The position numbers and the translations under genes were made by a program. The notes under the pieces were generated by a model that worked only from the letters and a program-made list of their open reading frames with translations, made no database searches and was not told the DNA's origin. This document shows positions 2 to 21,358 of a stretch of 44,537 nucleotides of DNA, piece by piece; position 1 is the stretch's first letter; each line of letters starts with the position of its first letter. Source of the stretch: a phage; the NCBI GenBank assembly GCA_034027115.1, contig GCA_034027115.1_4703.1. One strand, given 5' to 3'.

Positions 2-1273
2 GGTACAGCCAGTTACAACATAGTCAGTAATGTTATAGGGGCAGATTGCCAGCATGTAACTTACAACGGCACTGAAGGGCCAATAGCTCCTTCTAATAAC
101 CTTATCAAGGGGGTGATGGCTAATAACCCTAAGTATGCAGCGGTTGTTGCAGGCAAAGGAAGTACGAACTTAATCTCAGACGTGCTCGTAGGTTACTCAA
201 CTTCTGATGCTAGTCAGGCTCATGGTGTTACCGTAGAAGGGTCTGATAACGTCATAAATAATGTGCTTATGTCAGGATGTGATGGTACTAACTCTTTAGG
301 ACAAAGGCAGACTGCTACAATTGCACGCTTTATAGGTACAGCTAATAACAACTATGCGTCTGTATTTCCTAGCTACAGTGCTACAGGCGTTATTACTTTC
401 GAATCCGGCTCTACCCGTAACTTCGTAGAGGTAAAGCACCCTGGCAGGAGAAACGACCTTCTCAGTTCTGCTAGTACTATTGACGGTGCATCTACTATTG
501 ACGGCACTAATAATAGTAACGTAGTACACGCACCTGCCTTAGGGCAGTACATAGGTAGTATGTCAGGTAGGTTCGAATGGCGGATTAAGTCCATGTCACC
601 CCCTTCAGGCGTTCTTACTTCTGCTGATAAGTACAGAATGCTTGGGGATGGTGCTGTATCATTAGCTTTAGGTGGGGGTACTTCTTCTCAAGTTCGCCTA
701 TTTACTTCTGATGGTACTTCTCGGACAGTGTCCCTCACCAACGGTAACGTGCGTCTTTCTACCAGTACAGGCTATTTGCAGTTAGGTGCTAATGCAATGA
801 CCCCAGATAGTACTGGTACATACGCATTAGGTTCCGCCAGTCGAGCATGGTCTGGCGGTTATACTCAAGCAGCATTCACTGTTACATCAGATGCTCGGTG
901 TAAAACAGAACCTCTTACTATCTCAGATGCCTTACTGGATGCTTGGTCTGAAGTTGACTTTGTGCAGTTTAAGTATTTGGATCGTGTTGAGGAGAAGGGT
1001 GCAGACTCAGCTAGATGGCACTTTGGCATCATAGCTCAGCGAGCTAAGGAGGCTTTCGAACGCCACGGTATAGATGCACATCGCTATGGCTTCTTGTGTT
1101 TCGACAGTTGGGATGATGTATACGAGGAAGATGCCAATGGCTCTCGTAAACTGATTACACCAGCAGGTTCCCGCTACGGTATTCGTTACGAGGAAGTACT
1201 GATATTAGAGGCTGCGTTGATGCGGCGGACTATTAAGCGTATGCAGGAAGCACTAGCTTCCTTGCCTAAGTAA
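2..1273 (+). CDS. Tailspike/tail fibre protein, C-terminal portion; ORF is open to the window edge, so the 5' end lies outside. Ends in an intramolecular-chaperone (peptidase S74-like) domain.
   Basis: Frame is open from position 2 with no stop until 1271-1273; the first in-frame ATG at 113 is not the true start. Translation has the S-D-x-R-x-K autocleavage-type motif (TSDARCK) followed by ...WHFGIIAQRAKEAFERHGIDAHRYGFLCFDSWDD, typical of endosialidase/tail-fibre C-terminal chaperone domains. Confidence 0.8.
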   Translation, partial: GTASYNIVSNVIGADCQHVTYNGTEGPIAPSNNLIKGVMANNPKYAAVVAGKGSTNLISDVLVGYSTSDASQAHGVTVEGSDNVINNVLMSGCDGTNSLGQRQTATIARFIGTANNNYASVFPSYSATGVITFESGSTRNFVEVKHPGRRNDLLSSASTIDGASTIDGTNNSNVVHAPALGQYIGSMSGRFEWRIKSMSPPSGVLTSADKYRMLGDGAVSLALGGGTSSQVRLFTSDGTSRTVSLTNGNVRLSTSTGYLQLGANAMTPDSTGTYALGSASRAWSGGYTQAAFTVTSDARCKTEPLTISDALLDAWSEVDFVQFKYLDRVEEKGADSARWHFGIIAQRAKEAFERHGIDAHRYGFLCFDSWDDVYEEDANGSRKLITPAGSRYGIRYEEVLILEAALMRRTIKRMQEALASLPK

Positions 1274-1357
1274 GCAACAGGCAGTGCGTAAGCACTGCTT
1301 TCACGCAACTTTTCTTAAAGGTTATCATGGTGGTAGCCTTTCAGAAAAGGAGGTTAC

Positions 1358-3409
1358 ATGCTTCAAAGACTAGGGGCTTCCTTGGTGAAGTTCAAGAGTA
1401 AACTCGCTGGTGCCATCGAACGTATACTCTCAGACAAGTTAATGGACACTGTAAGCGTTAAAGATTTTGGCGCTAAAGGAGATGGTATCTCAGATGATAC
1501 TGCTGCTTTCAAAGCAGCAATAACTTGTGGCGCATCTCGTGTATTAGTACCTGCTGGTAGGTATGTGATTACTGACACCCTTTCTTTGCCATCTGGGGTC
1601 TGGTTATTGGGTGAGGGTGTTGACTATTGGGATACCTATCGTCCAGACGAGGGTAGGCTTATTAAGTCATGGAGTAAAGGAACGCACCTTGTGTTCACTG
1701 GCAGTGGGCCTAAAAACAAGCAATTTCTTAATATCTCTAATGAACGCCCAACAAAGACAATAAATAAAGTAACCTGCTCTTTTACCGACTTCACCAATAG
1801 TGATGCACAAGCAACAAAACCTGCTACACCACGTAGTATGAGTATTGCTGTATCAGTACAGGCAGGCAGTGGCTTACGCGATCTTCGTATTATGGTAAAC
1901 AATGAAGGTATCTCTGGTTACAATGACTTTGTTTCTACAAACAAGCTAGGTGACAACTGGGATATTGGGTTGCATGTATATGACAGCTCAGATGCTGTAA
2001 TTGATAATGTGCAAGTTGTTGGCTATTGGAGGGTTGCAGGTACACTCTTAACGGAGAACGACGGCTCCATCACAATGCGTGGTAATCCAGAGAAGACACT
2101 ATTTAATAAGTTCTACACTCAAGGTATCAGAGGTTTACTTATTAGGAATAGCCCACAAGTAGATGTAGTATCTCAAGAGTCAGCAACCAAGTTAACCATT
2201 AAAGCGAATGCTACGTCCCGTATATTAGCACAAAATGGTTTTCGAGTAGCAGGTAGTACTACGATACATAGATGGACTAGTGTTACAAGACAAGGAGACA
2301 CTTATGTATTAGATGGCATCACACCTGCGTTACCTTCTGCTTCTGACCTCGGGGTTGTTCATTTCCCATCTATGGGTAACAATTGGTCTGGTACAGTGTT
2401 CAACAATACTGTTGCTGTGTCCTTTGAGCACTCATCCGGTAGCACCTCAAGACAACTAGGACTTCCTGTATCTTTTGCTATGGAGATTGATGGCTTCCCT
2501 TGTCGTAACCTCAAGTTCATAAACTTCAAGGCACAGACTTCTTACGATGAAGGAAATACATTGTTTGGTGATATGCGCGATGCCAAGTTTGTGGCTAGTG
2601 AGTTCGAGAATGGTAGGTTGATTGCGTACGATTTGTCTCAGACCCAAGGGTACACTGGGAATATGCGGTCTGCTGTGTCTGACATGCAGTTTCATTCTAC
2701 TAATATTGAGGGCTTCACACCACGTGATTTCTTCTATGACCTAGGACACTTTCCTACTTCTTACACTGATGGTTCTTTTATCATGAAGCATTGGAGAGAA
2801 AAGGATTTACAGGTACAATGGTATAATGGTAAAGCATTCATCCGTCTACATGAAGATGATGGCCGTGTAACACTTACCAGTAAAGATGGTCTAGATTTGT
2901 ATAACTTTAGTTCTACAAAAGACGTGACGTTCAATGGTCGCAATTTTGTATTCAAAAACGATGTAAGTGAAGACGTATTGAAGTGGTTTGGCGGTTCAGG
3001 GGATATCTCTACGAAAGGCAACATCTCGCCTATGGTAGATGGGACTGCCTCTCTGGGTACAAATTTCTATCGCTGGGGCGCAGTGCATTCAGTAAATGGG
3101 ACGTTACAAACCTCTGACGGTAGGCTAAAGGAGATCCATGATATTAAACAAGAAGAACTTGATGCGGGGATTGCATTATCAGCAAGTCTAATCAAGTACC
3201 GTTGGTATGGAGAAGAAAAGTTCCACTTTGGTTGTATTGCCCAAGAGGTAATGTTAATCATGGAGAAACATAATCTAGACCCATTACAGTATGGAATGGT
3301 GCAGTATGATGAAGAGGCAGACATCTTTAGTGTAAACTATGCTGAATTGAACAGCTTCTGCATCGCAGCTCTGTCTAGGAGGTTGAATGCCATTAATCAA
3401 ATCAGTTAA
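1358..3409 (+). CDS. Tailspike protein (683 aa) with pectate-lyase-like right-handed beta-helix and C-terminal intramolecular chaperone domain; probable capsule/LPS depolymerase.
   Basis: SD AAAGGAGG 7 nt upstream of ATG. N-terminal VKDFGAKGDGISDDTAAFKAAI...VPAGRYVI motif typical of pectate-lyase-fold tailspikes. C-terminal TSDGRLKEIHDIK...FHFGCIAQEV chaperone motif. Confidence 0.85.
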   Translation: MLQRLGASLVKFKSKLAGAIERILSDKLMDTVSVKDFGAKGDGISDDTAAFKAAITCGASRVLVPAGRYVITDTLSLPSGVWLLGEGVDYWDTYRPDEGRLIKSWSKGTHLVFTGSGPKNKQFLNISNERPTKTINKVTCSFTDFTNSDAQATKPATPRSMSIAVSVQAGSGLRDLRIMVNNEGISGYNDFVSTNKLGDNWDIGLHVYDSSDAVIDNVQVVGYWRVAGTLLTENDGSITMRGNPEKTLFNKFYTQGIRGLLIRNSPQVDVVSQESATKLTIKANATSRILAQNGFRVAGSTTIHRWTSVTRQGDTYVLDGITPALPSASDLGVVHFPSMGNNWSGTVFNNTVAVSFEHSSGSTSRQLGLPVSFAMEIDGFPCRNLKFINFKAQTSYDEGNTLFGDMRDAKFVASEFENGRLIAYDLSQTQGYTGNMRSAVSDMQFHSTNIEGFTPRDFFYDLGHFPTSYTDGSFIMKHWREKDLQVQWYNGKAFIRLHEDDGRVTLTSKDGLDLYNFSSTKDVTFNGRNFVFKNDVSEDVLKWFGGSGDISTKGNISPMVDGTASLGTNFYRWGAVHSVNGTLQTSDGRLKEIHDIKQEELDAGIALSASLIKYRWYGEEKFHFGCIAQEVMLIMEKHNLDPLQYGMVQYDEEADIFSVNYAELNSFCIAALSRRLNAINQIS

Positions 3410-4984: not shown

Positions 4985-5126
4985 AAGCATCAAGACGGCG
5001 ACGTCTTTAAACATCCCGCTCTTTAACAATTTGGATGGTAACTTCTTAGTCTGGATAGGTTAAACCTAGGAGATTCTCTTGAGTCTCCTATAATGTAACC
5101 TAACTAACTAAATGAGGATTAATAAC

Positions 5127-5486
5127 ATGGCTATGTCTAATATGACTTACTCTCAGGTTTACAACACCGCTCATGCTGCATTAGTTGAACGTATCTGGAA
5201 TGATGCTATTGATTGTATTGATAACGCACATGATGCAATCCATGATGTGGCGGATAGTGCTGTACCAATCTATTATGCTGACATCTTCTCCGTGATGGCG
5301 AGTGAAGGAATTGATCATTTCTTCGAAGACTCCGGCCTGATGCCAGACACTAAGGATGTAACGGTAGTCTTGCAAGCCCGTATCTATGAGCAACTCACAA
5401 TTGATCTATGGGAACGTGTTCAGTATATGATTGTTGAATACGTCAACTCCGCCGAATATTTAGAAGAAGAAGAAGAGGAAGAATAA
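5127..5486 (+). CDS. ocr: Ocr-like DNA-mimic anti-restriction protein (T7 gp0.3 family).
   Basis: Translation MAMSNMTY...[34 protein letters not shown]...[14 protein letters not shown]... closely matches T7 Ocr as I recall it; poly-Glu C-terminus; GAGGA SD 8 nt upstream of the ATG at 5127 (the ORF track start at 5112 is an upstream in-frame ATG). Confidence 0.9.
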
Positions 5487-10040: not shown

Positions 10041-12029
10041 ATGGCTATTATTCAGAATGTACCGTGTCCTGCCTGTCAAAAGAATGGACATGATATTACT
10101 GGCAACCATCTTATGATATTTGAGGATGGCGCTGGTTACTGTAACCGTGGTCACTTCCATGATAATGGGAAGCCTTATTACCATAAGCCAGAGGGTGGCA
10201 CCGAGATAACCGAGTTACCTATTACTGGCAATATCAAATATACACCTTCTCAATTCAAAGAAATGGAGAAGGAAGGGAAGATAAGCGACCCTAAGCTACG
10301 CGCCATCGCTCTTGGTGGTATGCGTATGAAAGACCGTTGGGAGGTCATGAATGAGCAAGAAAGGGCAGACCAAGAAGCAGAGTGGAAACTTGATGTTGAA
10401 TGGTTCCTCACGCTTAAGCGTAAGAACCTTGTATCCCGTCACATTCGAGGTGACATCGCAGCAATGTACGATGTGCGCGTTGGACACGATGAAGAGGGAA
10501 GAGTCAACCGTCACTATTATCCACGATATGAAAAGGGTGTGCTTGTTGGAGCAAAATGCCGGACGTTGCCGAAGGATTTTAAGTTCGGACACCTAGGTAA
10601 ACTCTTTGGTATGCAAGATCTTTTCGGTATGAACACTTTGTCTCACGTGTTAGACAAGGGGAGACGAAAGGATTGCTTGCTTATTGTAGGCGGTGAACTT
10701 GATGCACTAGCAGCGCAGCAGATGCTCCTTGATTCTGCCAAGGGTACTAAGTGGGAAGGCCAGCCATACCATGTATGGTCTGTCAACAAAGGCGAGTCTT
10801 GTCTTGAAGAGATAGTGCAAAACCGTGAGCATATCGCCCAATTCAAGAAGATTATATGGGGTTTTGATGGAGATGAGGTAGGGCAGAAGCAGAATCAGCA
10901 AGCGGCTCGCCTGTTTTCTGGCAAATCCTATATCCTTGAATACCCCTCTGGTTGCAAAGATGCTAACAAGGCATTGATGGCTGGCAAGGCCAAAGAGTTT
11001 GTTGATGCATGGTTTAATGCCAAGTCATCTGATGAAGTCTTTGGTAGCCAGATTAAATCTATCGCCTCTCAAAGGGATAAGCTCAAGGCTGCACGTCCAG
11101 AGCAAGGACTATCATGGCCTTGGCCTAAGCTGAACAAGGTAACGCTAGGTATTCGTAAGAACCAACTTATCATTGTAGGCGCAGGCTCTGGTGTAGGTAA
11201 GACTGAGTTCCTTCGTGAAGTAGTTAAGCACCTCATTGAAGAACACGGTGAATCTGTAGGCATCATTTCGACAGAAGACCCGATGGTCAAGGTGTCCCGT
11301 GCTTTTATCGGCAAGTGGATTGATAAGCGTATTGAGTTACCGCCAACCAACGACCCGAAAGAAGATGGATACCGTGAGGTGTTCGACTACACCGAGGAAG
11401 AGGCTAACGCCGCCATTGATTATGTAGCTGATACAGGTAAGCTGTTTGTAGCTGACCTAGAGGGTGACTATTCGATGGAAAAGGTAGAGCAAACTTGCCT
11501 AGAGTTTGAGGCTATGGGCATTTCTAATATCATCATTGATAACTTAACGGGGATTAAATTAGATGAGCGTGCTTTTGGTGGGAAGGTTGGTGCACTTGAT
11601 GAATGCGTCAAGCGGATTGGTACTATCAAAGACCGACACCCGGTTACTATATTCCTTGTATCACACCTTACACGTCCTCCGGCAAACCGTACCCAACACG
11701 AAGAAGGTGGCGAGGTTATCCTTTCTGACTTCCGAGGTTCAGGCGCTATCGGATTCTGGGCATCTTACGCCTTGGGGATTGAGCGTAATACAAGAGCTGA
11801 AACGCTTGATGAACGGACTACCACGTACATCTCATGTGTCAAAGACCGCGACCAAGGTATCTACACTGGAACCAAGGTCATGCTTAAGGGTGACATTCAA
11901 ACCGGACGTTTAATGGAACCACAAGCCCGTACTAAGTCATTTGATACAGGTGAAGCAAGGCAACAAGAAGTGCCGGATTTACCGGACACTATAGAAGAGA
12001 CAACTTTTGACGATGAACAGGAGTTTTAA
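10041..12029 (+). CDS. DNA primase/helicase (T7 gp4-like) with acidic C-terminal tail ending in Phe.
   Basis: N-terminal Cys4 zinc ribbon (CPACQKNGH...GYCNRGH), helicase Walker A (GAGSGVGKTEF), C-terminal ...TTFDDEQEF. Confidence 0.95.
   Translation: MAIIQNVPCPACQKNGHDITGNHLMIFEDGAGYCNRGHFHDNGKPYYHKPEGGTEITELPITGNIKYTPSQFKEMEKEGKISDPKLRAIALGGMRMKDRWEVMNEQERADQEAEWKLDVEWFLTLKRKNLVSRHIRGDIAAMYDVRVGHDEEGRVNRHYYPRYEKGVLVGAKCRTLPKDFKFGHLGKLFGMQDLFGMNTLSHVLDKGRRKDCLLIVGGELDALAAQQMLLDSAKGTKWEGQPYHVWSVNKGESCLEEIVQNREHIAQFKKIIWGFDGDEVGQKQNQQAARLFSGKSYILEYPSGCKDANKALMAGKAKEFVDAWFNAKSSDEVFGSQIKSIASQRDKLKAARPEQGLSWPWPKLNKVTLGIRKNQLIIVGAGSGVGKTEFLREVVKHLIEEHGESVGIISTEDPMVKVSRAFIGKWIDKRIELPPTNDPKEDGYREVFDYTEEEANAAIDYVADTGKLFVADLEGDYSMEKVEQTCLEFEAMGISNIIIDNLTGIKLDERAFGGKVGALDECVKRIGTIKDRHPVTIFLVSHLTRPPANRTQHEEGGEVILSDFRGSGAIGFWASYALGIERNTRAETLDERTTTYISCVKDRDQGIYTGTKVMLKGDIQTGRLMEPQARTKSFDTGEARQQEVPDLPDTIEETTFDDEQEF
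11977..11999 (+). promoter_or_regulatory. Phage promoter (ATTTACCGGACACTATAGAAGAG) embedded in the 3' end of the primase-helicase gene.
   Basis: Full consensus match; lies inside codons for ...VPDLPDTIEE. Confidence 0.6.
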
Positions 12030-16526: not shown

Positions 16527-16548
16527 ATTTACTGGACACTATAGAAGG
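16527..16548 (+). promoter_or_regulatory. Phage promoter, consensus copy (ATTTACTGGACACTATAGAAGG).
   Basis: Exact consensus in an intergenic position. Confidence 0.7.
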
Positions 16549-16613: not shown

Positions 16614-16991
16614 ATGTCTATGGTAACTACTCTGGTATTTGTAGCTCAATACTTTCGTGGTCTGGCTAATAAGTTCAAGTCCAAGGCTATCAAAGTTATT
16701 GAGTCTCGCATCGAGGCAGTACAGGCAGAGCAAGTTAAAGTTGAAGAACATCGTAGTTCTAAAATGATTGACTGCCATAACCGCTACTATGCATCTCGTG
16801 ATGACCTTAATGCACGCCAAGTCAAAGAGGTTGAAGAGATGCTGGCACGTCACCAGCAAGAGCGCGACAGTCTGAAAGCTGAATTTGAAGAGAACAAGGC
16901 ATCCATCGCCCTTGTACATCAAGCCGCATCTGACAGCCTGAAGAAAGAGATTGTTATGCTGGAAATTGAGTTAGACAACCTGACCAAATAA
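16614..16991 (+). CDS. Hypothetical protein (125 aa), hydrophobic N-terminus plus coiled-coil.
   Basis: SD TAGGAG; heptad-like charged C-terminal region. Confidence 0.55.
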   Translation: MSMVTTLVFVAQYFRGLANKFKSKAIKVIESRIEAVQAEQVKVEEHRSSKMIDCHNRYYASRDDLNARQVKEVEEMLARHQQERDSLKAEFEENKASIALVHQAASDSLKKEIVMLEIELDNLTK

Positions 16992-17010
16992 TTACTGGAC
17001 ACTATAGAAC
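16990..17010 (+). promoter_or_regulatory. Phage promoter variant (AATTACTGGACACTATAGAAC).
   Basis: Near-consensus match immediately after the upstream stop. Confidence 0.55.
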
Positions 17011-17153
17011 AATAGGTCGGCTTAGTTCGGCCTATGATTGTAAAGTGTTGAACCTTATTGTGCATCTTGCACAACCCGATGCTATATCGGGCTTTCTAGC
17101 GAGTACATGCTTGTGCTCAGTACAAAGCTAACTGACAATAGGAGACTAAATAA

Positions 17154-17960
17154 ATGGCACGTGGTGATTTTGATTTTGGTGCTCAGGTTACTAAGGCTGA
17201 AGGTAAAGTATTTAAGAACCCTGAAGTTGGTGATCATGAAGCAGTAATCTCTGGCATCATTCATGTTGGTTCCTTCCAAGATATTTTTAAGAAAGGTAAT
17301 ACCACTGAGGTTAAGAAGCCAGCAAACTTTGTTCTTGTTAAGATTATCCTGATGGGTGACGACGACAAGAATGAAGATGATTCTCGCATGGAACAGTGGA
17401 TGGCTGTGCCTCTGAAGTCTGGTGACAAGGCAACCTTGACTAAGTTCCTGAATGCAGTTGACCCTAAAGAGCTGCTTGGTGGTTTCGATGACTTCATCGG
17501 TGAATGCCTGACTGCAACTATGGTTGGCTCTGGCGACAAGAATGATGATGGTACTTTCAAGTATGTTAACTGGAAAGGCTTTGGCGGTATGCCTGATAAG
17601 TTGAAGAAGCTTGTACTGGCTCAGGTAGAAGAGGAAGGTCTGTCTATGACAGGTCATATCACCTTCGACAAGCTGACCAAAGAAATCCTTGATGACATCC
17701 CAGCTAACTTGGTGCGTCAATACTTCCTTAATGAAACACCTCGTGGTAAGAACCTGTCTGTTGCTGGTTCTCACGTAGAAGCAATCATTAAAGCTGCTCG
17801 TGAAGAAGACCCAGAGTGGAAGAAAGCCAAGAAGAAAGATGACGAGGATGCTACTCCAGCTAATCGTAAATCTCTGGATACTGGTGAGTCTGTTCCACAG
17901 GAAGTACCTGAAGCAGAAGATACTCCTGCACCGGAGATGGATGAGGACGCGGAATATTAA
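17154..17960 (+). CDS. Abundant-looking protein with acidic C-terminal tail ending in Tyr (268 aa); candidate single-stranded DNA-binding protein (function inferred).
   Basis: AGGAG SD; codon usage rich in ctg/cgt/ggt/gct; C-terminus ...EAEDTPAPEMDEDAEY resembles the acidic aromatic tail of T7 gp2.5. Confidence 0.7.
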   Translation: MARGDFDFGAQVTKAEGKVFKNPEVGDHEAVISGIIHVGSFQDIFKKGNTTEVKKPANFVLVKIILMGDDDKNEDDSRMEQWMAVPLKSGDKATLTKFLNAVDPKELLGGFDDFIGECLTATMVGSGDKNDDGTFKYVNWKGFGGMPDKLKKLVLAQVEEEGLSMTGHITFDKLTKEILDDIPANLVRQYFLNETPRGKNLSVAGSHVEAIIKAAREEDPEWKKAKKKDDEDATPANRKSLDTGESVPQEVPEAEDTPAPEMDEDAEY

Positions 17961-17969
17961 GGAGAAAGG

Positions 17970-18188
17970 ATGAAAGTACAAATCGTAACCCTGCACTGCA
18001 AGAAAGGTATCACAACGCTCGGAGGTAGCACTTTCCACTCTTTCTCCGAAGGGGAGATTTATGCTGACCTGCACTACATCTGGCGCGACGGACAGCACGT
18101 GGTGAACTACAGCGACCCAGCTACGGGGAAACGCCACGGCGTATCGCTTCCTGCGCATGACATTGCTCAGGTGAACACAGTTTTATAA
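17970..18188 (+). CDS. Hypothetical protein (72 aa).
   Basis: AAGGAG SD directly upstream of ATG. Confidence 0.55.
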   Translation: MKVQIVTLHCKKGITTLGGSTFHSFSEGEIYADLHYIWRDGQHVVNYSDPATGKRHGVSLPAHDIAQVNTVL

Positions 18189-18189
18189 A

Positions 18190-18205
18190 GTCTCACATGT
18201 GAGAC
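18190..18205. repeat. Copy 5 of palindrome GTCTCACATGTGAGAC.
   Basis: Exact read; 15 nt upstream of a consensus promoter. Confidence 0.9.
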
Positions 18206-18220
18206 AAATCGGTGTCCGGT

Positions 18221-18243
18221 ATTTACTGGACACTATAGAAGAG
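18221..18243 (+). promoter_or_regulatory. Phage promoter, consensus copy (ATTTACTGGACACTATAGAAGAG).
   Basis: Exact consensus. Confidence 0.7.
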
Positions 18244-18292
18244 AAGAATTTTAATCGGCGATAATGCCACAACTAACAAAGGAGAATTTAAT

Positions 18293-18667
18293 ATGTTCAA
18301 GATTGAAACTATCGTAAACCGTGTTGTTAAAGGTGCTGCTCTGGTATCCGTTGAGTCTTTCATTATCGTCGATGAAGCTGATCAACTGGTAGCTGGTACT
18401 AAGGCTTATGATACTCGTGAAGAAGCTCAGGCTAAGATTGACAGCATGGGTAACTTCGCTGCGGGTCTGGAGTTCGCTCGTGCTTGCTTCCCTGAGCAGG
18501 CTGACAAAGCTCAGATTGGTAAGGCTAATATCGTAGCTGAATATCTGGATTGGATTGCTGCTGGTAAGCCGGTGAAAGAAGTTAAAGCTGCGGAAGAAGT
18601 TGAATCTCCGGCAGTAGAAGAAGTAGCTGCACCGGAAGTTCCGGTAAGCGAAGAAGAAGAGTTTTAA
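18293..18667 (+). CDS. Small acidic protein (124 aa) ending ...VSEEEEF; likely highly expressed; function unknown.
   Basis: AAGGAGA SD; optimal-codon-rich; flanked by a consensus promoter upstream and a hairpin plus T-run downstream. Confidence 0.75.
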   Translation: MFKIETIVNRVVKGAALVSVESFIIVDEADQLVAGTKAYDTREEAQAKIDSMGNFAAGLEFARACFPEQADKAQIGKANIVAEYLDWIAAGKPVKEVKAAEEVESPAVEEVAAPEVPVSEEEEF

Positions 18668-18672
18668 TTGAT

Positions 18673-18706
18673 GCCCTGTCTGCCTTAGTGTAGGCAGGGT
18701 CTTTTG
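18673..18706 (+). terminator. Putative rho-independent terminator.
   Basis: GCCCTGTCTGCC-ttagtgta-GGCAGGGTC followed by TTTT. Confidence 0.5.
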
Positions 18707-18934
18707 CGTAATAGTTATTGGAGAATGAATTATGCCGACTATTGAAGAACGTTTCCTGATTCACGTGAGCTTCTCATCCATACATCTTGGTTATCTTATC
18801 ACTATTCTCTTAGGTGAAGAGATTTATCTGCATAACCACTTAATACCAGAGTATGTATGTCACCGAGATAAGATACACCCTGCTAATTGGGCGAAAGAGT
18901 GGCTGCGTGAACATGTGCTGAAGGAGTGGCCTAC

Positions 18935-19963
18935 ATGCGACCAAACTTCGACTTCGGAGCTACAGTATCGGAAGACAATAACCTGTTGCTGTGGCCAACT
19001 GAAGGTAATAGAATCGCTTTAATAGATGCTGACATGTTACCCTACATCGTAGGTTATACAATCAGTGACATGACTTATGTACGAGCCACAACTCGTGTTA
19101 AGTCAGGACAAGTCCCATCAATCAAAGATACACCTGAGTGTAAGCAAGCGTGTGACCGTGTGAACTCCTTGCTTAACTCTTGGGTGTATGCAGCAGAGTG
19201 TGATGCTGCTAAGTTATTCATGACGAAATCAGAAGCTAACTTCCGAGTTCGCCTAGCCTTCACCAAACCTTATAAGGGTCAACGTAAGACCGAGAAGCCT
19301 CCGTTCTTCTATGAATTGCGAGAGCATCTCTTAGAGGTTCATGGTGCAATATTGGCAGATGGAGAAGAGGCTGATGACCTCATGAGCATTGCACAATGGG
19401 ACAGCCACCGCCGCTTCCAGCAAGATACAGGTAACGAGTTCCCTATCGGTAGTCCAGAGCATAAAGCATTCTCTGATACTTGCATCGTTTCCTTAGATAA
19501 GGATTTGATGATTGTTCCCGGTTGGCATCTTCAGCCGGGTCAAGAGAAGAAATGGGTAGAGCCTATGGGTTGGCTTGAGTTACGCCGTAAGGCTAATGGT
19601 CAGGTTAAAGACCTTAAAGGTGCTGGCCTCATGTTTCATTATGCACAGATGATTATCGGTGATGATATTGATAACTATGCTGGCATACCTGGACGTGGTG
19701 CTAAATACGCCTATGATCTTCTCAAAGATTGTAAGACAGAGAAAGAGTTGTACATGGCAGTGCTTGGTGCTTACAAGGCTAAGTTCGGACATGGACAAGT
19801 TAAGATTAAGAATTACCGAGGTGGTTATCGTATCGGCAAGGCTTTTGACCTGATGCTCGAATGTGGTCGCCTAGCTCACATGGCAAGATTCAAAGGTGAT
19901 ATATGGCGAGCCGATAAGAACCCAATCTTGTGGGGAGATGATGCAGAATGGTTAGCAAATTAA
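18935..19963 (+). CDS. 5'-3' exonuclease (T7 gp6-like, FEN family).
   Basis: AAGGAG SD 8 nt before ATG 18935; IALIDADMLPYIVG acidic motif resembles the gp6 N-terminal catalytic region. Confidence 0.85.
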   Translation: MRPNFDFGATVSEDNNLLLWPTEGNRIALIDADMLPYIVGYTISDMTYVRATTRVKSGQVPSIKDTPECKQACDRVNSLLNSWVYAAECDAAKLFMTKSEANFRVRLAFTKPYKGQRKTEKPPFFYELREHLLEVHGAILADGEEADDLMSIAQWDSHRRFQQDTGNEFPIGSPEHKAFSDTCIVSLDKDLMIVPGWHLQPGQEKKWVEPMGWLELRRKANGQVKDLKGAGLMFHYAQMIIGDDIDNYAGIPGRGAKYAYDLLKDCKTEKELYMAVLGAYKAKFGHGQVKIKNYRGGYRIGKAFDLMLECGRLAHMARFKGDIWRADKNPILWGDDAEWLAN

Positions 19964-20358
19964 AATCATCGGAGGTAGCAGCTTATAAGAGGGAACTGCT
20001 AGAGAAGCAAGGATGGAAGTGCCCCCTATGTGGCGGCAGCCTCAAGGCTGTTACTCCTATAAACCGTGTACTTGACCATGACCATGAGACAGGATTCTGC
20101 CGTGCTGTTGTATGCCGAGGCTGCAATGGTGCAGAAGGAAAGATTAAGGGTGTTATCTCTGGTTATGGTAAGGCTGGTAACAACCGTTACTTCCAGCTTC
20201 AATGGTTAGAGCGACTATATGAATACTGGAAGTTACATAGTACGCCTCAGACAGATAAGTTATATCACAAACATCAAACGGAGGCAGAGAAGCGCGAGGT
20301 TAAGAACCGTAAGGCACGCCTTGCTTATGCAAGAAAGAAGGAGGTTAAAGTTGGGTAA
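19948..20358 (+). CDS. Endonuclease VII-type Holliday junction resolvase.
   Basis: CPLCGG...LDHDHETGFCRAVVCRGCNGAEG matches the Endonuclease_7 signature (CxxC, DHDH, CxxCN). Confidence 0.85.
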   Translation: MVSKLKSSEVAAYKRELLEKQGWKCPLCGGSLKAVTPINRVLDHDHETGFCRAVVCRGCNGAEGKIKGVISGYGKAGNNRYFQLQWLERLYEYWKLHSTPQTDKLYHKHQTEAEKREVKNRKARLAYARKKEVKVG

Positions 20359-21358
20359 GCTTCGCAGCTTGTACAAAGACTCCGAGGTACTTGATGCAAT
20401 CGAGCAAGCTACCGACGAGAAAGGTAATGTTAATTACAATGAGATGGCACGTGTATTATCGTGTCACCCTGTGGGTAAGAAGATTACCCGCCAGTTGGCT
20501 CGATACTGGCATGGTCAATTCAAGAAGACCAAGAAGAATGGTGATTATTACCAGACCCTTCTGCAAGAAGATAAGCGTATCAAAGAAGAGCGTAAGCTCA
20601 GGACTCCTGACCGCTACGAGGATTTGGCTATTGTACCATTGCCTGACTCGCCTCATCGAAGTGTATTGGTAATCCCTGATACTCATGCACCTTATGAGCA
20701 TCCAGATACCTTAGAGTTCCTTGCAGCAGTCGCGGCACGTTACCGTCCAGATACAGTGGTTCACTTAGGAGATGAGGCAGATAAACACGCCCTCTCCTTC
20801 CATGACTCTGACCCGAATCTGGATAGTGCTGGCATGGAGCTAGAGAAGGCTCGTGTCTTCATGCACAAGTTGCACAAGATGTTCCCTGTGATGCGCCTGT
20901 GTCATTCTAATCACGGCTCTATGCACTTCCGTAAGGCAAGCGCCAAGGGTATTCCAGTGCAATATCTTCGCACCTACCGTGAAGTCTTCTTCCCAAATGG
21001 AGGTGGCGACCAGTGGGATTGGCAGCATACACATGTTCTTGAGTTGCCGAATGGCGAACAGGTGGCATTCAAGCATCAACCTGCTGGCTCTGTCCTAGCA
21101 GATGCAGCGCATGAGCGTATGAACCTTGTGTGTGGTCACTTGCACGGTAAGATGTCTGTGGAGTACGCACGTAATACACATGAACAGTATTGGGCTGTGC
21201 AAGGTGGCTGCTTAATTGATGAGTCATCCCGTGCATTTGCCTATGGGCGTGAGTCTAAATACAAGCCAGCATTAGGTTGTGTGGTTATTCTGGAGGGTGT
21301 ACCTCATATTGTCCCGATGCAAACCAATAGCGACAACCGTTGGATTGGCAAGATTTAG
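20353..21358 (+). CDS. Calcineurin-like metallophosphoesterase (start uncertain: TTG 20353 after AGGAGG, or a later ATG).
   Basis: Ordered motifs DTHAP, GDEAD, SNHG and GHLHG are the phosphoesterase signature set (DxH, GDxxD, GNH[DE], GHxH). Confidence 0.8.

What the first reader, a model, noticed from the sequence alone, without database searches (positions are those of the whole stretch)
18293..18667. Promoter-to-terminator cassette encoding a small, probably highly expressed acidic protein
This 124-aa ORF has its own consensus promoter (18221), a strong SD, host-optimal codon usage and a hairpin/T-run directly after its stop. That is the signature of an abundant middle protein. In T7 the comparable position holds abundant small host-interacting proteins (gp5.5 binding H-NS, gp5.9 inhibiting RecBCD), so a nucleoid- or nuclease-targeting role is plausible.
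Basis: partly seen in the sequence, partly recalled or inferred. Interest (0 to 1): 0.45.

Follow-up and report, generated by a model that had tools for sequence, protein, structure and literature searches.

The report
Abundant small phage protein with docking tail
This is a real, self-contained gene of an SP6/K1-5-like phage that appears to make one of the most abundant proteins of the infection, and its conserved acidic tail ending in phenylalanine suggests it plugs into the phage's own DNA-replication machinery rather than attacking a host protein.

Summary
ORF 18293-18667 (124 aa, pI 4.3) has a perfect 23-nt phage-RNAP promoter, an AAGGAG Shine-Dalgarno, the highest E. coli codon adaptation of 39 genes (above the capsid gene) and a hairpin/U-run terminator. 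The window is a Vectrevirus. The gene is the SP6 gp20 / phrog_4429 family, function unknown. The promoter-gene-terminator cassette, its position (DNA polymerase, ~260-aa gp18-like protein, this gene, exonuclease) and its capsid-level codon bias recur in SP6-like phages of eight host genera.

The protein has a confidently predicted ~92-aa alpha/beta domain with no convincing structural relative. A disordered acidic linker of variable length follows, then a conserved acidic C-terminus ending in F/Y. In 14 of 14 phages, this protein, the primase-helicase and the gp18-like protein all carry that end. The same rule applied to T7 picks only gp4 and gp2.5, whose tails dock on T7 DNA polymerase.

Best reading (inferred): an abundant replication/recombination protein docking on a phage partner, probably the polymerase.

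Also noticed: the gp18-like protein and the exonuclease share an N-terminal FDFGAxV motif.

The parts
18221..18243 (+). Phage-RNAP (SP6/K1-5-type) promoter ATTTACTGGACACTATAGAAGAG. The inferred +1 is G at 18238, giving a 55-nt leader.
   Evidence: Exact match to the 17-nt core, with 10 sites in the window against 0.1 expected. Identical to the majority base at all 23 positions. The +1 is inferred by analogy with the SP6 promoter (own knowledge).
18279..18284 (+). Shine-Dalgarno AAGGAG, 8 nt upstream of the ATG
   Evidence: Read directly from the sequence.
18293..18667 (+). CDS of 124 aa, SP6 gp20 / phrog_4429 family, function unknown
   Evidence: phrog_4429, E = 1.8e-57; SP6_20, 94% identity. 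It has the highest CAI in the genome.
18293..18577 (+). Residues 1-95. The globular alpha/beta domain covers about the first 92 residues: beta-hairpin 3-13/16-26 and helices 42-51, 53-65 and 71-89.
   Evidence: AF2 model built on alignment A2. Mean pLDDT per 10-residue block is 89-96 over residues 1-90. Near-invariant K37, A45, G58, K77, A78, N79, A82, W87 and G91. No convincing fold relative.
18578..18646 (+). Residues 96-118: disordered acidic Ala/Glu/Val/Pro-rich linker, variable in length and sequence
   Evidence: Mean pLDDT per block falls to 58-62 beyond residue 100. Indels and low conservation in alignments A1 and A2.
18647..18664 (+). Residues 119-124, SEEEEF: conserved acidic C-terminal tip ending in an aromatic residue (putative docking peptide)
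   Evidence: Invariant in 23 close homologues. An acidic-plus-F end is kept in 19 of 25 distant homologues and in 14 of 14 phages examined.
18673..18706 (+). Intrinsic (T-phi-like) terminator: 11-bp GC-rich stem, 6-nt loop, then CUUUUG
   Evidence: -18.3 kcal/mol, z = -3.4. An equivalent hairpin plus CUU(A/U)UUUUG follows the homologue's stop codon in 7 other phages. The same site is annotated as a terminator in Proteus phage PM93.
16527..16549 (+). Upstream phage promoter in front of the gp17-like gene. Its transcripts run through to the target.
16990..17012 (+). Upstream phage promoter in front of the gp18-like gene. Its transcripts run through to the target.
17154..17960 (+). gp18-like 268-aa acidic protein (phrog_862, function unknown), ending ...MDEDAEY. 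It is the probable gp2.5 analogue (SSB), by inference only. It carries the same tail type and has the second-highest CAI.
   Evidence: There is no sequence link to gp2.5 or to any Pfam or PDB entry.
10041..12029 (+). Primase-helicase, ending ...TFDDEQEF (same tail type, as in T7 gp4)
   Evidence: Annotated as DNA primase/helicase in phage LL11.
13698..16244 (+). DNA polymerase, the candidate receptor of the three tails
   Evidence: Homologous to T7 gp5 (E = 1e-32). The region aligned to the T7 front basic patch KWKRRW reads WGRIRM. This is inconclusive.

Best explanation
The cassette produces a short (~470-nt) mRNA that is both abundant and stable. It encodes one of the most abundant non-structural proteins of the infection.

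Transcription. Three phage promoters lie in series at 16527, 16990 and 18221, all feeding the gene. A T-phi-like terminator sits directly after the stop codon. No promoter was detected between the terminator and 21353, so the downstream catalytic genes (exonuclease, endonuclease VII, phosphoesterase) would receive only read-through. The terminator would therefore work as an attenuator, separating proteins needed in bulk from enzymes needed in small amounts.

Protein. It is built like a tethered docking module: a ~92-aa folded domain, a 20-30-residue floppy acidic linker, and a conserved acidic C-terminus ending in F/Y.

Proposed mechanism (inferred). The tail docks in the same site of a phage replisome protein as the equivalent tails of the primase-helicase and the gp18-like (probable SSB) protein. 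That site is most likely a basic patch with a pocket on the DNA polymerase, as for T7 gp4 and gp2.5 on gp5. The folded domain would then bring a stoichiometric activity to the replication and recombination machinery, such as DNA binding or partner binding.

Shown: the cassette, the conservation, the codon bias, the architecture and the three-protein tail pattern. Inferred: abundance, the docking partner, and the activity of the folded domain.
For: - Expression signals: a perfect consensus promoter and two further promoters upstream; the highest CAI of 39 genes.
- Codon bias across the family: lowest ENC in 9 of 13 phages, and second or third in the other four, among helicase, polymerase, exonuclease, gp18-like, capsid and target genes.
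- Terminator: a hairpin and U-run follow the stop codon in 8 of 8 phages, with different stem sequences but a conserved GGGCUU(A/U)UUUUG-type end. A phage-specific repeated promoter motif lies 54-103 nt upstream in 6 of 7 distant phages.
- Synteny: DNA polymerase, gp18-like, target, exonuclease, endonuclease VII in Molineuxvirinae, Colwellvirinae and unclassified relatives.
- Architecture.
- Tail pattern: all three proteins end in an acidic run plus F/Y within the last 3 residues in 14 of 14 phages, 42 of 42 tails. Only these 3 of 39 window proteins fit the rule. The same rule picks only gp2.5 and gp4 among 10 T7 proteins.
- Within-phage resemblance of the tails: all three end in Y in Klebsiella phage K22PH164C1; the Marinomonas tails are SQEF, SEF and ESF.
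- T7 precedent: the gp2.5 tail anchors on the gp5 front basic patch. Deleting F232 abolishes polymerase binding but not ssDNA binding. PDB 6P7E shows the gp4 DTDF peptide on gp5 (PMC12339929; bioRxiv 10.64898/2026.02.22.705581).
Against: - There is no direct evidence of any interaction.
- The domain itself is net acidic (pI 4.9).
- The T7 front basic patch is only partly alignable in this polymerase.
- Six of 25 distant family members lack the terminal F. Some look truncated or chimeric.
- Within-phage tail resemblance could reflect shared ancestry of related phages rather than co-evolution.
- T7 manages without such a third protein.
- ENC is noisy for a 124-codon, Ala/Glu-rich gene.
Confidence: 0.45

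Rival explanations
1. The protein is itself a stoichiometric DNA-coating protein: either the SSB of SP6-like phages or a histone-like dsDNA binder, analogous to the small abundant phi29 p5 and p6. On this reading the acidic tail works mainly as an autoinhibitory and partner-recruiting tail, as in gp2.5 or E. coli SSB. This overlaps with the best explanation rather than excluding it.
For: Capsid-level or stronger codon bias across the family implies stoichiometric amounts. No recognisable SSB is annotated anywhere in these genomes. The layout of domain, disordered acidic linker and aromatic tip is that of SSBs. Conserved K37, K77, N79, Y84 and W87 could form a nucleic-acid-binding surface. The sizes and abundance of phi29 p5 and p6 are from own knowledge.
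Against: No OB fold was predicted. There is no similarity to gp2.5 and no SSB-like structural match with meaningful scores. The folded domain is net negative. The neighbouring gp18-like protein (250-268 aa, same tail, high CAI) is the better size match for a gp2.5 analogue.
Confidence: 0.2
2. One reading: an abundant host-directed inhibitor in the position of T7 gp5.5 or gp5.9. It would bind H-NS or the nucleoid, or block RecBCD or another host nuclease, to protect the linear phage DNA.
For: The gene sits between DNA polymerase and exonuclease, as T7 genes 5.3-5.9 do, and gene 5.9 directly precedes gene 6. The protein is small, acidic and highly expressed. No gp5.9 homologue was detected in the window, so the RecBCD problem still needs a solution there; the need for one is own inference.
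Against: A family profile shows no similarity to gp5.5, gp5.9 or any of 22 T7 proteins; all scores are at or below 1.5 bits. The model is not a DNA-mimic-like shape, and no such match appeared in PDB searches. This idea does not explain why the conserved C-terminal tip is shared with the phage helicase and the gp18-like protein.
Confidence: 0.15
3. Decoy of the host SSB C-terminal tip. The abundant protein would present an SSB-like acidic/aromatic end and so soak up host SSB-interacting enzymes such as ExoI, RecQ, RecJ, PriA and the Pol III chi subunit.
For: The protein has an acidic tail ending in F on a flexible linker and is very abundant. T7 gp2.5 and E. coli SSB tails are functionally related (own knowledge).
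Against: Host SSB tips are almost invariant (DDDIPF; own knowledge), whereas the phage tails vary: EEEEF, EDETF, ADESF, EGAF, EESFEG. They lack the Pro-Phe and resemble the tails of the same phage's helicase and gp18-like protein instead.
Confidence: 0.07

Closest known systems
T7 gp2.5 (SSB) and gp4 (primase-helicase) C-terminal tails docking on gp5 DNA polymerase
   Same: A flexible acidic C-terminal segment ends in an aromatic residue at or next to the carboxyl end. It is present on several replication proteins of one phage. The same motif rule picks gp2.5 and gp4 in T7 and three proteins here. gp2.5 is also promoter-proximal and abundant (phi2.5 promoter; abundance from own knowledge).
   Different: The folded domain is not an OB fold and has no sequence or fold similarity to gp2.5. 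T7 has two tail-bearing proteins and this lineage has three. The binding partner here is not shown.
T7 gp5.5 (H-NS binder) and gp5.9 (RecBCD inhibitor)
   Same: Small proteins encoded between the DNA polymerase and exonuclease genes. The target is acidic, like gp5.9.
   Different: No detectable homology. gp5.5 and gp5.9 lack the acidic-aromatic C-terminus. The target has its own promoter and terminator and a different predicted architecture.
DUF1508 / UPF0339 (YegP-like) small domains
   Different: Only 1 of 25 family members touches the Pfam model, at E = 0.16. The similarity covers about 50 residues. DUF1508 itself has no known function, so it adds nothing mechanistic.
Tethered C-terminal docking peptides of hub proteins (E. 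coli SSB tip DDDIPF; ribosomal stalk P-proteins)
   Same: The architecture is a small oligomerisation or binding domain, then an Ala/Pro/Glu-rich flexible hinge, then a conserved acidic-aromatic C-terminal peptide that recruits partners. This resemblance is from own knowledge of those systems.
   Different: No homology. The tip sequence differs from DDDIPF and varies between phages.

Membership tests
SP6 gp20 / phrog_4429 (function unknown) | Significant full-length match to the family profile and its members | tested here: met
   phrog_4429, E = 1.8e-57, covering residues 1-124. 94% identity to SP6_20. UAB_Phi78 ORF26 is listed as Gp20 of SP6, 'Unknown' (PMC4837284).
SP6/K1-5-type phage RNAP promoter | 23-nt consensus ATTTA..GACACTATAGAAG.., repeated through the genome in the direction of transcription | tested here: met
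   Ten sites against 0.1 expected. The site at 18221 equals the consensus at all 23 positions. Promoter activity was not tested.
T-phi-like intrinsic terminator | Stable GC-rich hairpin followed directly by a U-run, just downstream of a highly expressed gene | tested here: met
   -18.3 kcal/mol, z = -3.4, followed by CUUUUG. Conserved in position in 8 of 8 phages. Termination efficiency was not tested.
T7 gp5.5 family (DUF2675, H-NS binding) | Sequence homology to gp5.5 | tested here: not met
   hhalign probability 0.1%. hmmsearch score -1.4 bits. No Pfam hit.
T7 gp5.5 family (DUF2675, H-NS binding) | Binds host H-NS | not testable with these tools
   Needs a pull-down or two-hybrid experiment.
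T7 gp5.9 family (RecBCD inhibitor, DNA mimic) | Sequence homology to gp5.9 | tested here: not met
   hmmsearch score -0.7 bits.
T7 gp5.9 family (RecBCD inhibitor, DNA mimic) | Inhibits RecBCD | not testable with these tools
   Needs a nuclease assay or plating on recBCD hosts.
gp2.5-like phage SSB | OB-fold ssDNA-binding core homologous to gp2.5 | tested here: not met
   hhalign probability 0.1%. The AF2 model is a beta-hairpin plus three helices. No meaningful OB-fold or SSB structural hit.
gp2.5-like phage SSB | Acidic, disordered C-terminal tail ending in an aromatic residue | tested here: met
   ...SEEEEF. Mean pLDDT per block falls to 58-62 beyond residue 100. Conserved across the family.
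gp2.5-like phage SSB | Binds ssDNA and DNA polymerase | not testable with these tools
   Needs biochemistry. No multimer prediction was available.
DUF1508 / UPF0339 (YegP-like) | Match to Pfam PF07411 at the gathering threshold | tested here: not met
   No hit for the window protein. One of 25 family members hits at E = 0.16.
DUF1508 / UPF0339 (YegP-like) | Structural similarity to the UPF0339 fold | tested here: inconclusive

The most novel reading that the evidence does not exclude
The protein is a phage-encoded replisome and recombination organiser. Its C-terminal acidic-aromatic tip would compete with, or alternate with, the helicase and SSB-like tails on the DNA polymerase. Its novel folded domain would be the receptor for the N-terminal FD(F/Y)G(A/G)xV peptide that the gp18-like protein and the FEN-type exonuclease share in every SP6-like phage examined. 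That would make a small, very abundant hub wiring polymerase, SSB and exonuclease together through two kinds of short linear motif. The four-protein T7 replisome paradigm has no counterpart to this.
Probability: 0.1. Interest if true: 0.75.

Novelty: new variant of a known kind. Interest (0 to 1): 0.5.

Why it matters
T7 is the textbook minimal replisome: polymerase, thioredoxin, helicase-primase and SSB, held together largely by two acidic, Phe-terminated tails.

Its sister lineage includes SP6, K1-5 and K1E and their relatives, which supply the SP6 RNA polymerase and capsule-targeting therapeutic phages. No SSB is annotated in this lineage. It carries three tail-bearing proteins, and the smallest has the strongest codon bias in the genome.

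If the tail docks on the polymerase, this lineage runs a differently organised replisome, with an extra, stoichiometric component of novel fold. The claim is directly testable with peptides and an F124 deletion.

The work also assigns testable roles to two conserved orphan families (gp18-like and gp20-like). It also flags a shared N-terminal motif linking the gp18-like protein and the exonuclease.

Tried and rejected
- Family and sequence searches on the target. Pfam, NCBIfam and PDB sequence searches gave nothing, either single-sequence or with a 25-member profile.
- Structure prediction. A first AF2 model from 23 near-identical sequences was poor (pLDDT 59). It was replaced by a model from a diverse alignment (pLDDT 85.6).
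- The DUF1508 label attached to one homologue could not be substantiated.
- The family profile against T7 gp2.5, gp5.5 and 22 T7 proteins found no similarity.
- Attempts to identify the gp18-like neighbour as a gp2.5-type SSB all returned nothing or 'hypothetical protein'. These were phmmer and hmmsearch against the PDB, Pfam on 14 members, hhalign against gp2.5, and a 5.8-billion-protein profile search. Its SSB role remains an inference.
- Aligning this DNA polymerase to T7 gp5 to find the front basic patch or thioredoxin-binding loop was inconclusive. Only palm and fingers align; KWKRRW corresponds to WGRIRM.
- Literature searches found no functional study of SP6 gp20, K1-5 or K1E homologues. 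One search was badly designed and useless. Dobbins 2004 and the Hernandez & Richardson review are not in the library. The eLife paper on the CB5A phage holds no phage expression data.
- A permutation test for within-phage tail co-evolution was considered and dropped. With 14 related phages it cannot separate co-evolution from shared ancestry.

Full report
**What the window is.** Bases 17000-20000 are 99.6% identical to Escherichia phage EEc4 and to other Vectrevirus genomes (K1-5/K1E group; Autographiviridae, Molineuxvirinae). SP6-like phages of Salmonella, Klebsiella, Proteus and Citrobacter follow. The window is about one genome length and is circularly permuted: it starts inside the tailspike genes. 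The local gene order matches the annotated phage LL11. It runs primase-helicase, DNA polymerase, three small or medium 'hypothetical' genes, the target, exonuclease, endonuclease VII, phosphoesterase, kinase, ligase.

**Checking the observation.**
- The ORF 18293-18667 encodes 124 aa with pI 4.33.
- The sequence at 18221-18243, ATTTACTGGACACTATAGAAGAG, is a phage-RNAP promoter of the SP6/K1-5 type, not a sigma-70 promoter. Its 17-nt core occurs ten times in the window, all on the + strand, against 0.1 expected. This copy matches the majority base at all 23 positions.
- AAGGAG lies 8 nt before the ATG.
- The E. coli CAI is 0.66, the highest of 39 genes.
- An 11-bp GC-rich hairpin at 18673-18700, followed by CUUUUG, starts five bases after the stop codon (-18.3 kcal/mol, z = -3.4).

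**The cassette is conserved, so it is functional.**
- tblastn finds the protein in 213 phage records, all ~42-47-kb Autographiviridae of the SP6-like lineage. Hosts are Escherichia, Salmonella, Klebsiella, Proteus, Pectobacterium, Erwinia, Vibrio, Pseudomonas, Marinomonas, Aeromonas and Ralstonia.
- A full HMM scan of 1.84 billion representative proteins found only 29 relatives at E <= 0.001. The family is therefore narrow.
- In thirteen other phages examined, the gene sits after the DNA polymerase and a ~250-268-aa 'gp18-like' protein, and before the exonuclease and endonuclease VII.
- In all eight phages folded, the stop codon is followed by a strong hairpin. Stem sequences differ, but the 3' end keeps the pattern GGGCUU(A/U)UUUUG or CUUUCUUUUG. 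The annotators of Proteus phage PM93 marked a terminator at the same place. A paper on UAB_Phi78 and SP6 reports terminators after genes of unknown function at conserved positions (PMC4837284).
- In six of seven distant phages, the phage's own repeated promoter motif lies 54-103 nt upstream of the ATG. Vibrio phage AS51 has an annotated promoter there.
- A host-independent bias measure (effective number of codons, ENC) ranks the target as the most biased of helicase, polymerase, exonuclease, gp18-like, capsid and target genes in 9 of 13 phages. It ranks second or third in the other four. ENC is noisy for 120 codons, but the direction is consistent.

**Transcription logic (inference).** Promoters at 16527, 16990 and 18221 all point through the target, and the next promoter downstream is at 21353. 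Transcript density should therefore peak over the target and drop at the terminator. If so, the exonuclease, endonuclease VII and phosphoesterase genes are served by read-through only. The terminator then acts as an attenuator between proteins needed in bulk and enzymes needed in small amounts. The 3' hairpin would also stabilise the short mRNA.

**The protein.** It is the SP6 gp20 family (phrog_4429, 'unknown function').
- It has no Pfam, NCBIfam or PDB sequence match.
- Close homologues show a near-invariant N-terminal ~95 residues, a linker (96-118) with indels, and an invariant SEEEEF end.
- Distant homologues (24-55% identity) keep K37, A45, G58, K77, A78, N79, A82, W87 and G91. Nineteen of 25 keep an acidic C-terminus ending in F, while the linker is unalignable.
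- With this diverse alignment AlphaFold2 gives a confident model: mean pLDDT 85.6, with 10-residue block means of 89-96 over residues 1-90. It shows a long beta-hairpin (3-13, 16-26), two short bridges and helices 42-51, 53-65 and 71-89. Block means fall to 58-62 beyond residue 100, consistent with a disordered tail.
- A 'DUF1508' label on one homologue is not supported by Pfam.

**The informative feature: the tail.** Only three of the 39 proteins encoded in the window end in an aromatic residue (within the last three positions) preceded by at least two acidic residues in the four before it. They are the primase-helicase (...DDEQEF), the gp18-like protein (...MDEDAEY) and the target (...SEEEEF).
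- The same rule applied to ten T7 proteins picks exactly gp4 (...NDTDF) and gp2.5 (...EDGDF).
- In 14 phages from eight host genera, all three orthologues keep such an end, 42 of 42 tails.
- The tails of one phage tend to resemble each other. All three end in Y in Klebsiella phage K22PH164C1. The Marinomonas phage CB5A tails are SQEF, SEF and ESF. The two Pseudomonas phages have one or two extra residues after the F in both the gp18-like protein and the target.
- In T7 these tails are the glue of the replisome. The gp2.5 tail anchors on the front basic patch of gp5 (K587, K589, R590, R591). PDB 6P7E shows the gp4 DTDF peptide bound to gp5 (PMC12339929). Deleting F232 of gp2.5 abolishes polymerase binding but not ssDNA binding (bioRxiv 10.64898/2026.02.22.705581).
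- The simplest reading is that SP6-like phages have three proteins using this docking mode, and that the target is the third, with no T7 counterpart.
- A host SSB decoy is less likely. Host SSB tips are nearly invariant (DDDIPF; own knowledge), whereas these tails vary and track the phage's own helicase and gp18-like tails.

**What remains unknown.**
- The partner is not shown. The polymerase aligns with T7 gp5 only over palm and fingers, and the basic patch KWKRRW corresponds to WGRIRM, which is inconclusive.
- The activity of the folded domain is unknown. It is mildly acidic (pI 4.9), so simple DNA coating is not obvious. Capsid-level expression nonetheless argues for a stoichiometric role such as coating, titrating or scaffolding, rather than catalysis.
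- The gp18-like protein has the size, tail, promoter and codon bias expected of a gp2.5 analogue. No sequence method links it to gp2.5 or to anything annotated. Which of the two proteins is the SSB is therefore open.

The 'abundant middle protein' part holds. The gp5.5/gp5.9 analogy is positional only: the family profile scores at or below 1.5 bits against all 22 T7 proteins from gp2.5 to gp7.7. Those T7 proteins also lack the tail. A host target cannot be excluded, but it does not explain the shared tail.

**A by-product worth following.** The gp18-like protein and the exonuclease both begin with F-(D/N)-(F/Y)-G-(A/G)-x-(V/I/L); in the window these are MARGDFDFGAQV and MRPNFDFGATV.
- A regular expression for the motif hits exactly twice in all six frames of the window. 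It hits exactly twice in 12 of 13 other 20-kb loci, always at these two N-termini.
- Variants co-vary within a phage: FDFGA in enteric phages, FDYGG in Vibrio, Marinomonas and Pseudomonas phages.
- In the exonuclease the motif is part of a ~25-residue extension ahead of the PIN-domain strand.
- It looks like a second docking peptide for a common partner. The target's folded domain is one candidate receptor, which is speculation.

**Verdict.** The feature is real, and the cassette had been noticed before in SP6 and its relatives. The protein remains functionally uncharacterised.
- High expression: likelihood about 0.9.
- Docking on a phage replisome partner through a gp2.5/gp4-type tail: about 0.45, by inference only.
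- A DNA-coating role (0.2, partly overlapping), a host inhibitor (0.15) and a host SSB decoy (0.07) remain as alternatives.
- I rate it a new variant of a known kind: tail-mediated replisome docking on a new fold, in a lineage that would then have three tail bearers.
- Interest is moderate, 0.5.

Noticed in passing
window 17154-17200 and 18935-18980; also L006-L018: The gp18-like protein and the FEN-type exonuclease share an N-terminal motif, F-[DN]-[FY]-G-[AG]-x-[VIL] (MARGDFDFGAQV and MRPNFDFGATV). It occurs exactly twice in all six frames of the window and twice in 12 of 13 related 20-kb loci, always at these two N-termini. Variants co-vary within a phage. It is probably a shared docking peptide; the partner is unknown.
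   Followed up: partly
window 18190-18233: Two tandem hairpins (18190-18205 and 18211-18233; -22.2 kcal/mol, z = -4.4) lie between the gp19-like stop codon and the target's promoter. The 3' arm of the second is the promoter's CUGGACAC. The other two promoters tested (16527 and 16990) lack this. It may be an RNase III or processing site on read-through RNA, or a regulatory structure.
   Followed up: partly
window 17154-17960: The gp18-like 268-aa protein (phrog_862) has its own promoter, the second-highest CAI and an acidic tail ending in Y. It belongs to an orphan family confined to the same phages (89 clusters, all 'hypothetical', no Pfam). It is a plausible but unproven gp2.5-type SSB analogue.
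   Followed up: partly
window 16614-16991: The gp17-like 125-aa protein has its own promoter and the third-highest CAI (0.49). Its sequence looks like a coiled coil. The PHROG label 'polysaccharide chain length determinant protein' (phrog_7450) and the weak TIGR03007 hit probably reflect coiled-coil composition rather than function.
   Followed up: no
window 18732-19022: A 96-aa ORF directly after the terminator (phrog_10319, 'DNA repair protein'; annotated as such in LL11) overlaps the exonuclease start (18935) by about 88 nt in another frame. It has one of the lowest CAI values in the genome, 0.22.
   Followed up: no
window 5112-5486: An early 124-aa Ocr-like anti-restriction protein (phrog_2568, E = 8.7e-47) ends in seven glutamates (EEEEEEE) with no aromatic residue. 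This is a different kind of acidic end from the three replication proteins.
   Followed up: no
window 116-3409: Two consecutive tailspike genes (116-1273 and 1358-3409) lie at the start of the window. The first appears truncated at the window edge or matches only the C-terminal part of its family. The window is a circular permutation of the genome, with a K1-5-like dual-tailspike arrangement.
   Followed up: no
L014 10497-11737 (Pectobacterium phage POP72): The exonuclease appears split or mis-started. The annotated start lies inside the PIN-domain strand (upstream in-frame ...TDGDRIALVDGD), and a separate 99-aa ORF (10497-10796) precedes it. The N-terminal FDFG-type motif was not found for this exonuclease. 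The cause may be a frameshift, a sequencing error or an intron-like insertion.
   Followed up: no
L017 (Vibrio phage Vc1, KJ502657.1): The record's taxonomy line places this phage in Drexlerviridae. However, the locus encodes a single-subunit RNA polymerase and the full SP6-like replication module in the same order as the Autographiviridae here. The record is probably misclassified.
   Followed up: no
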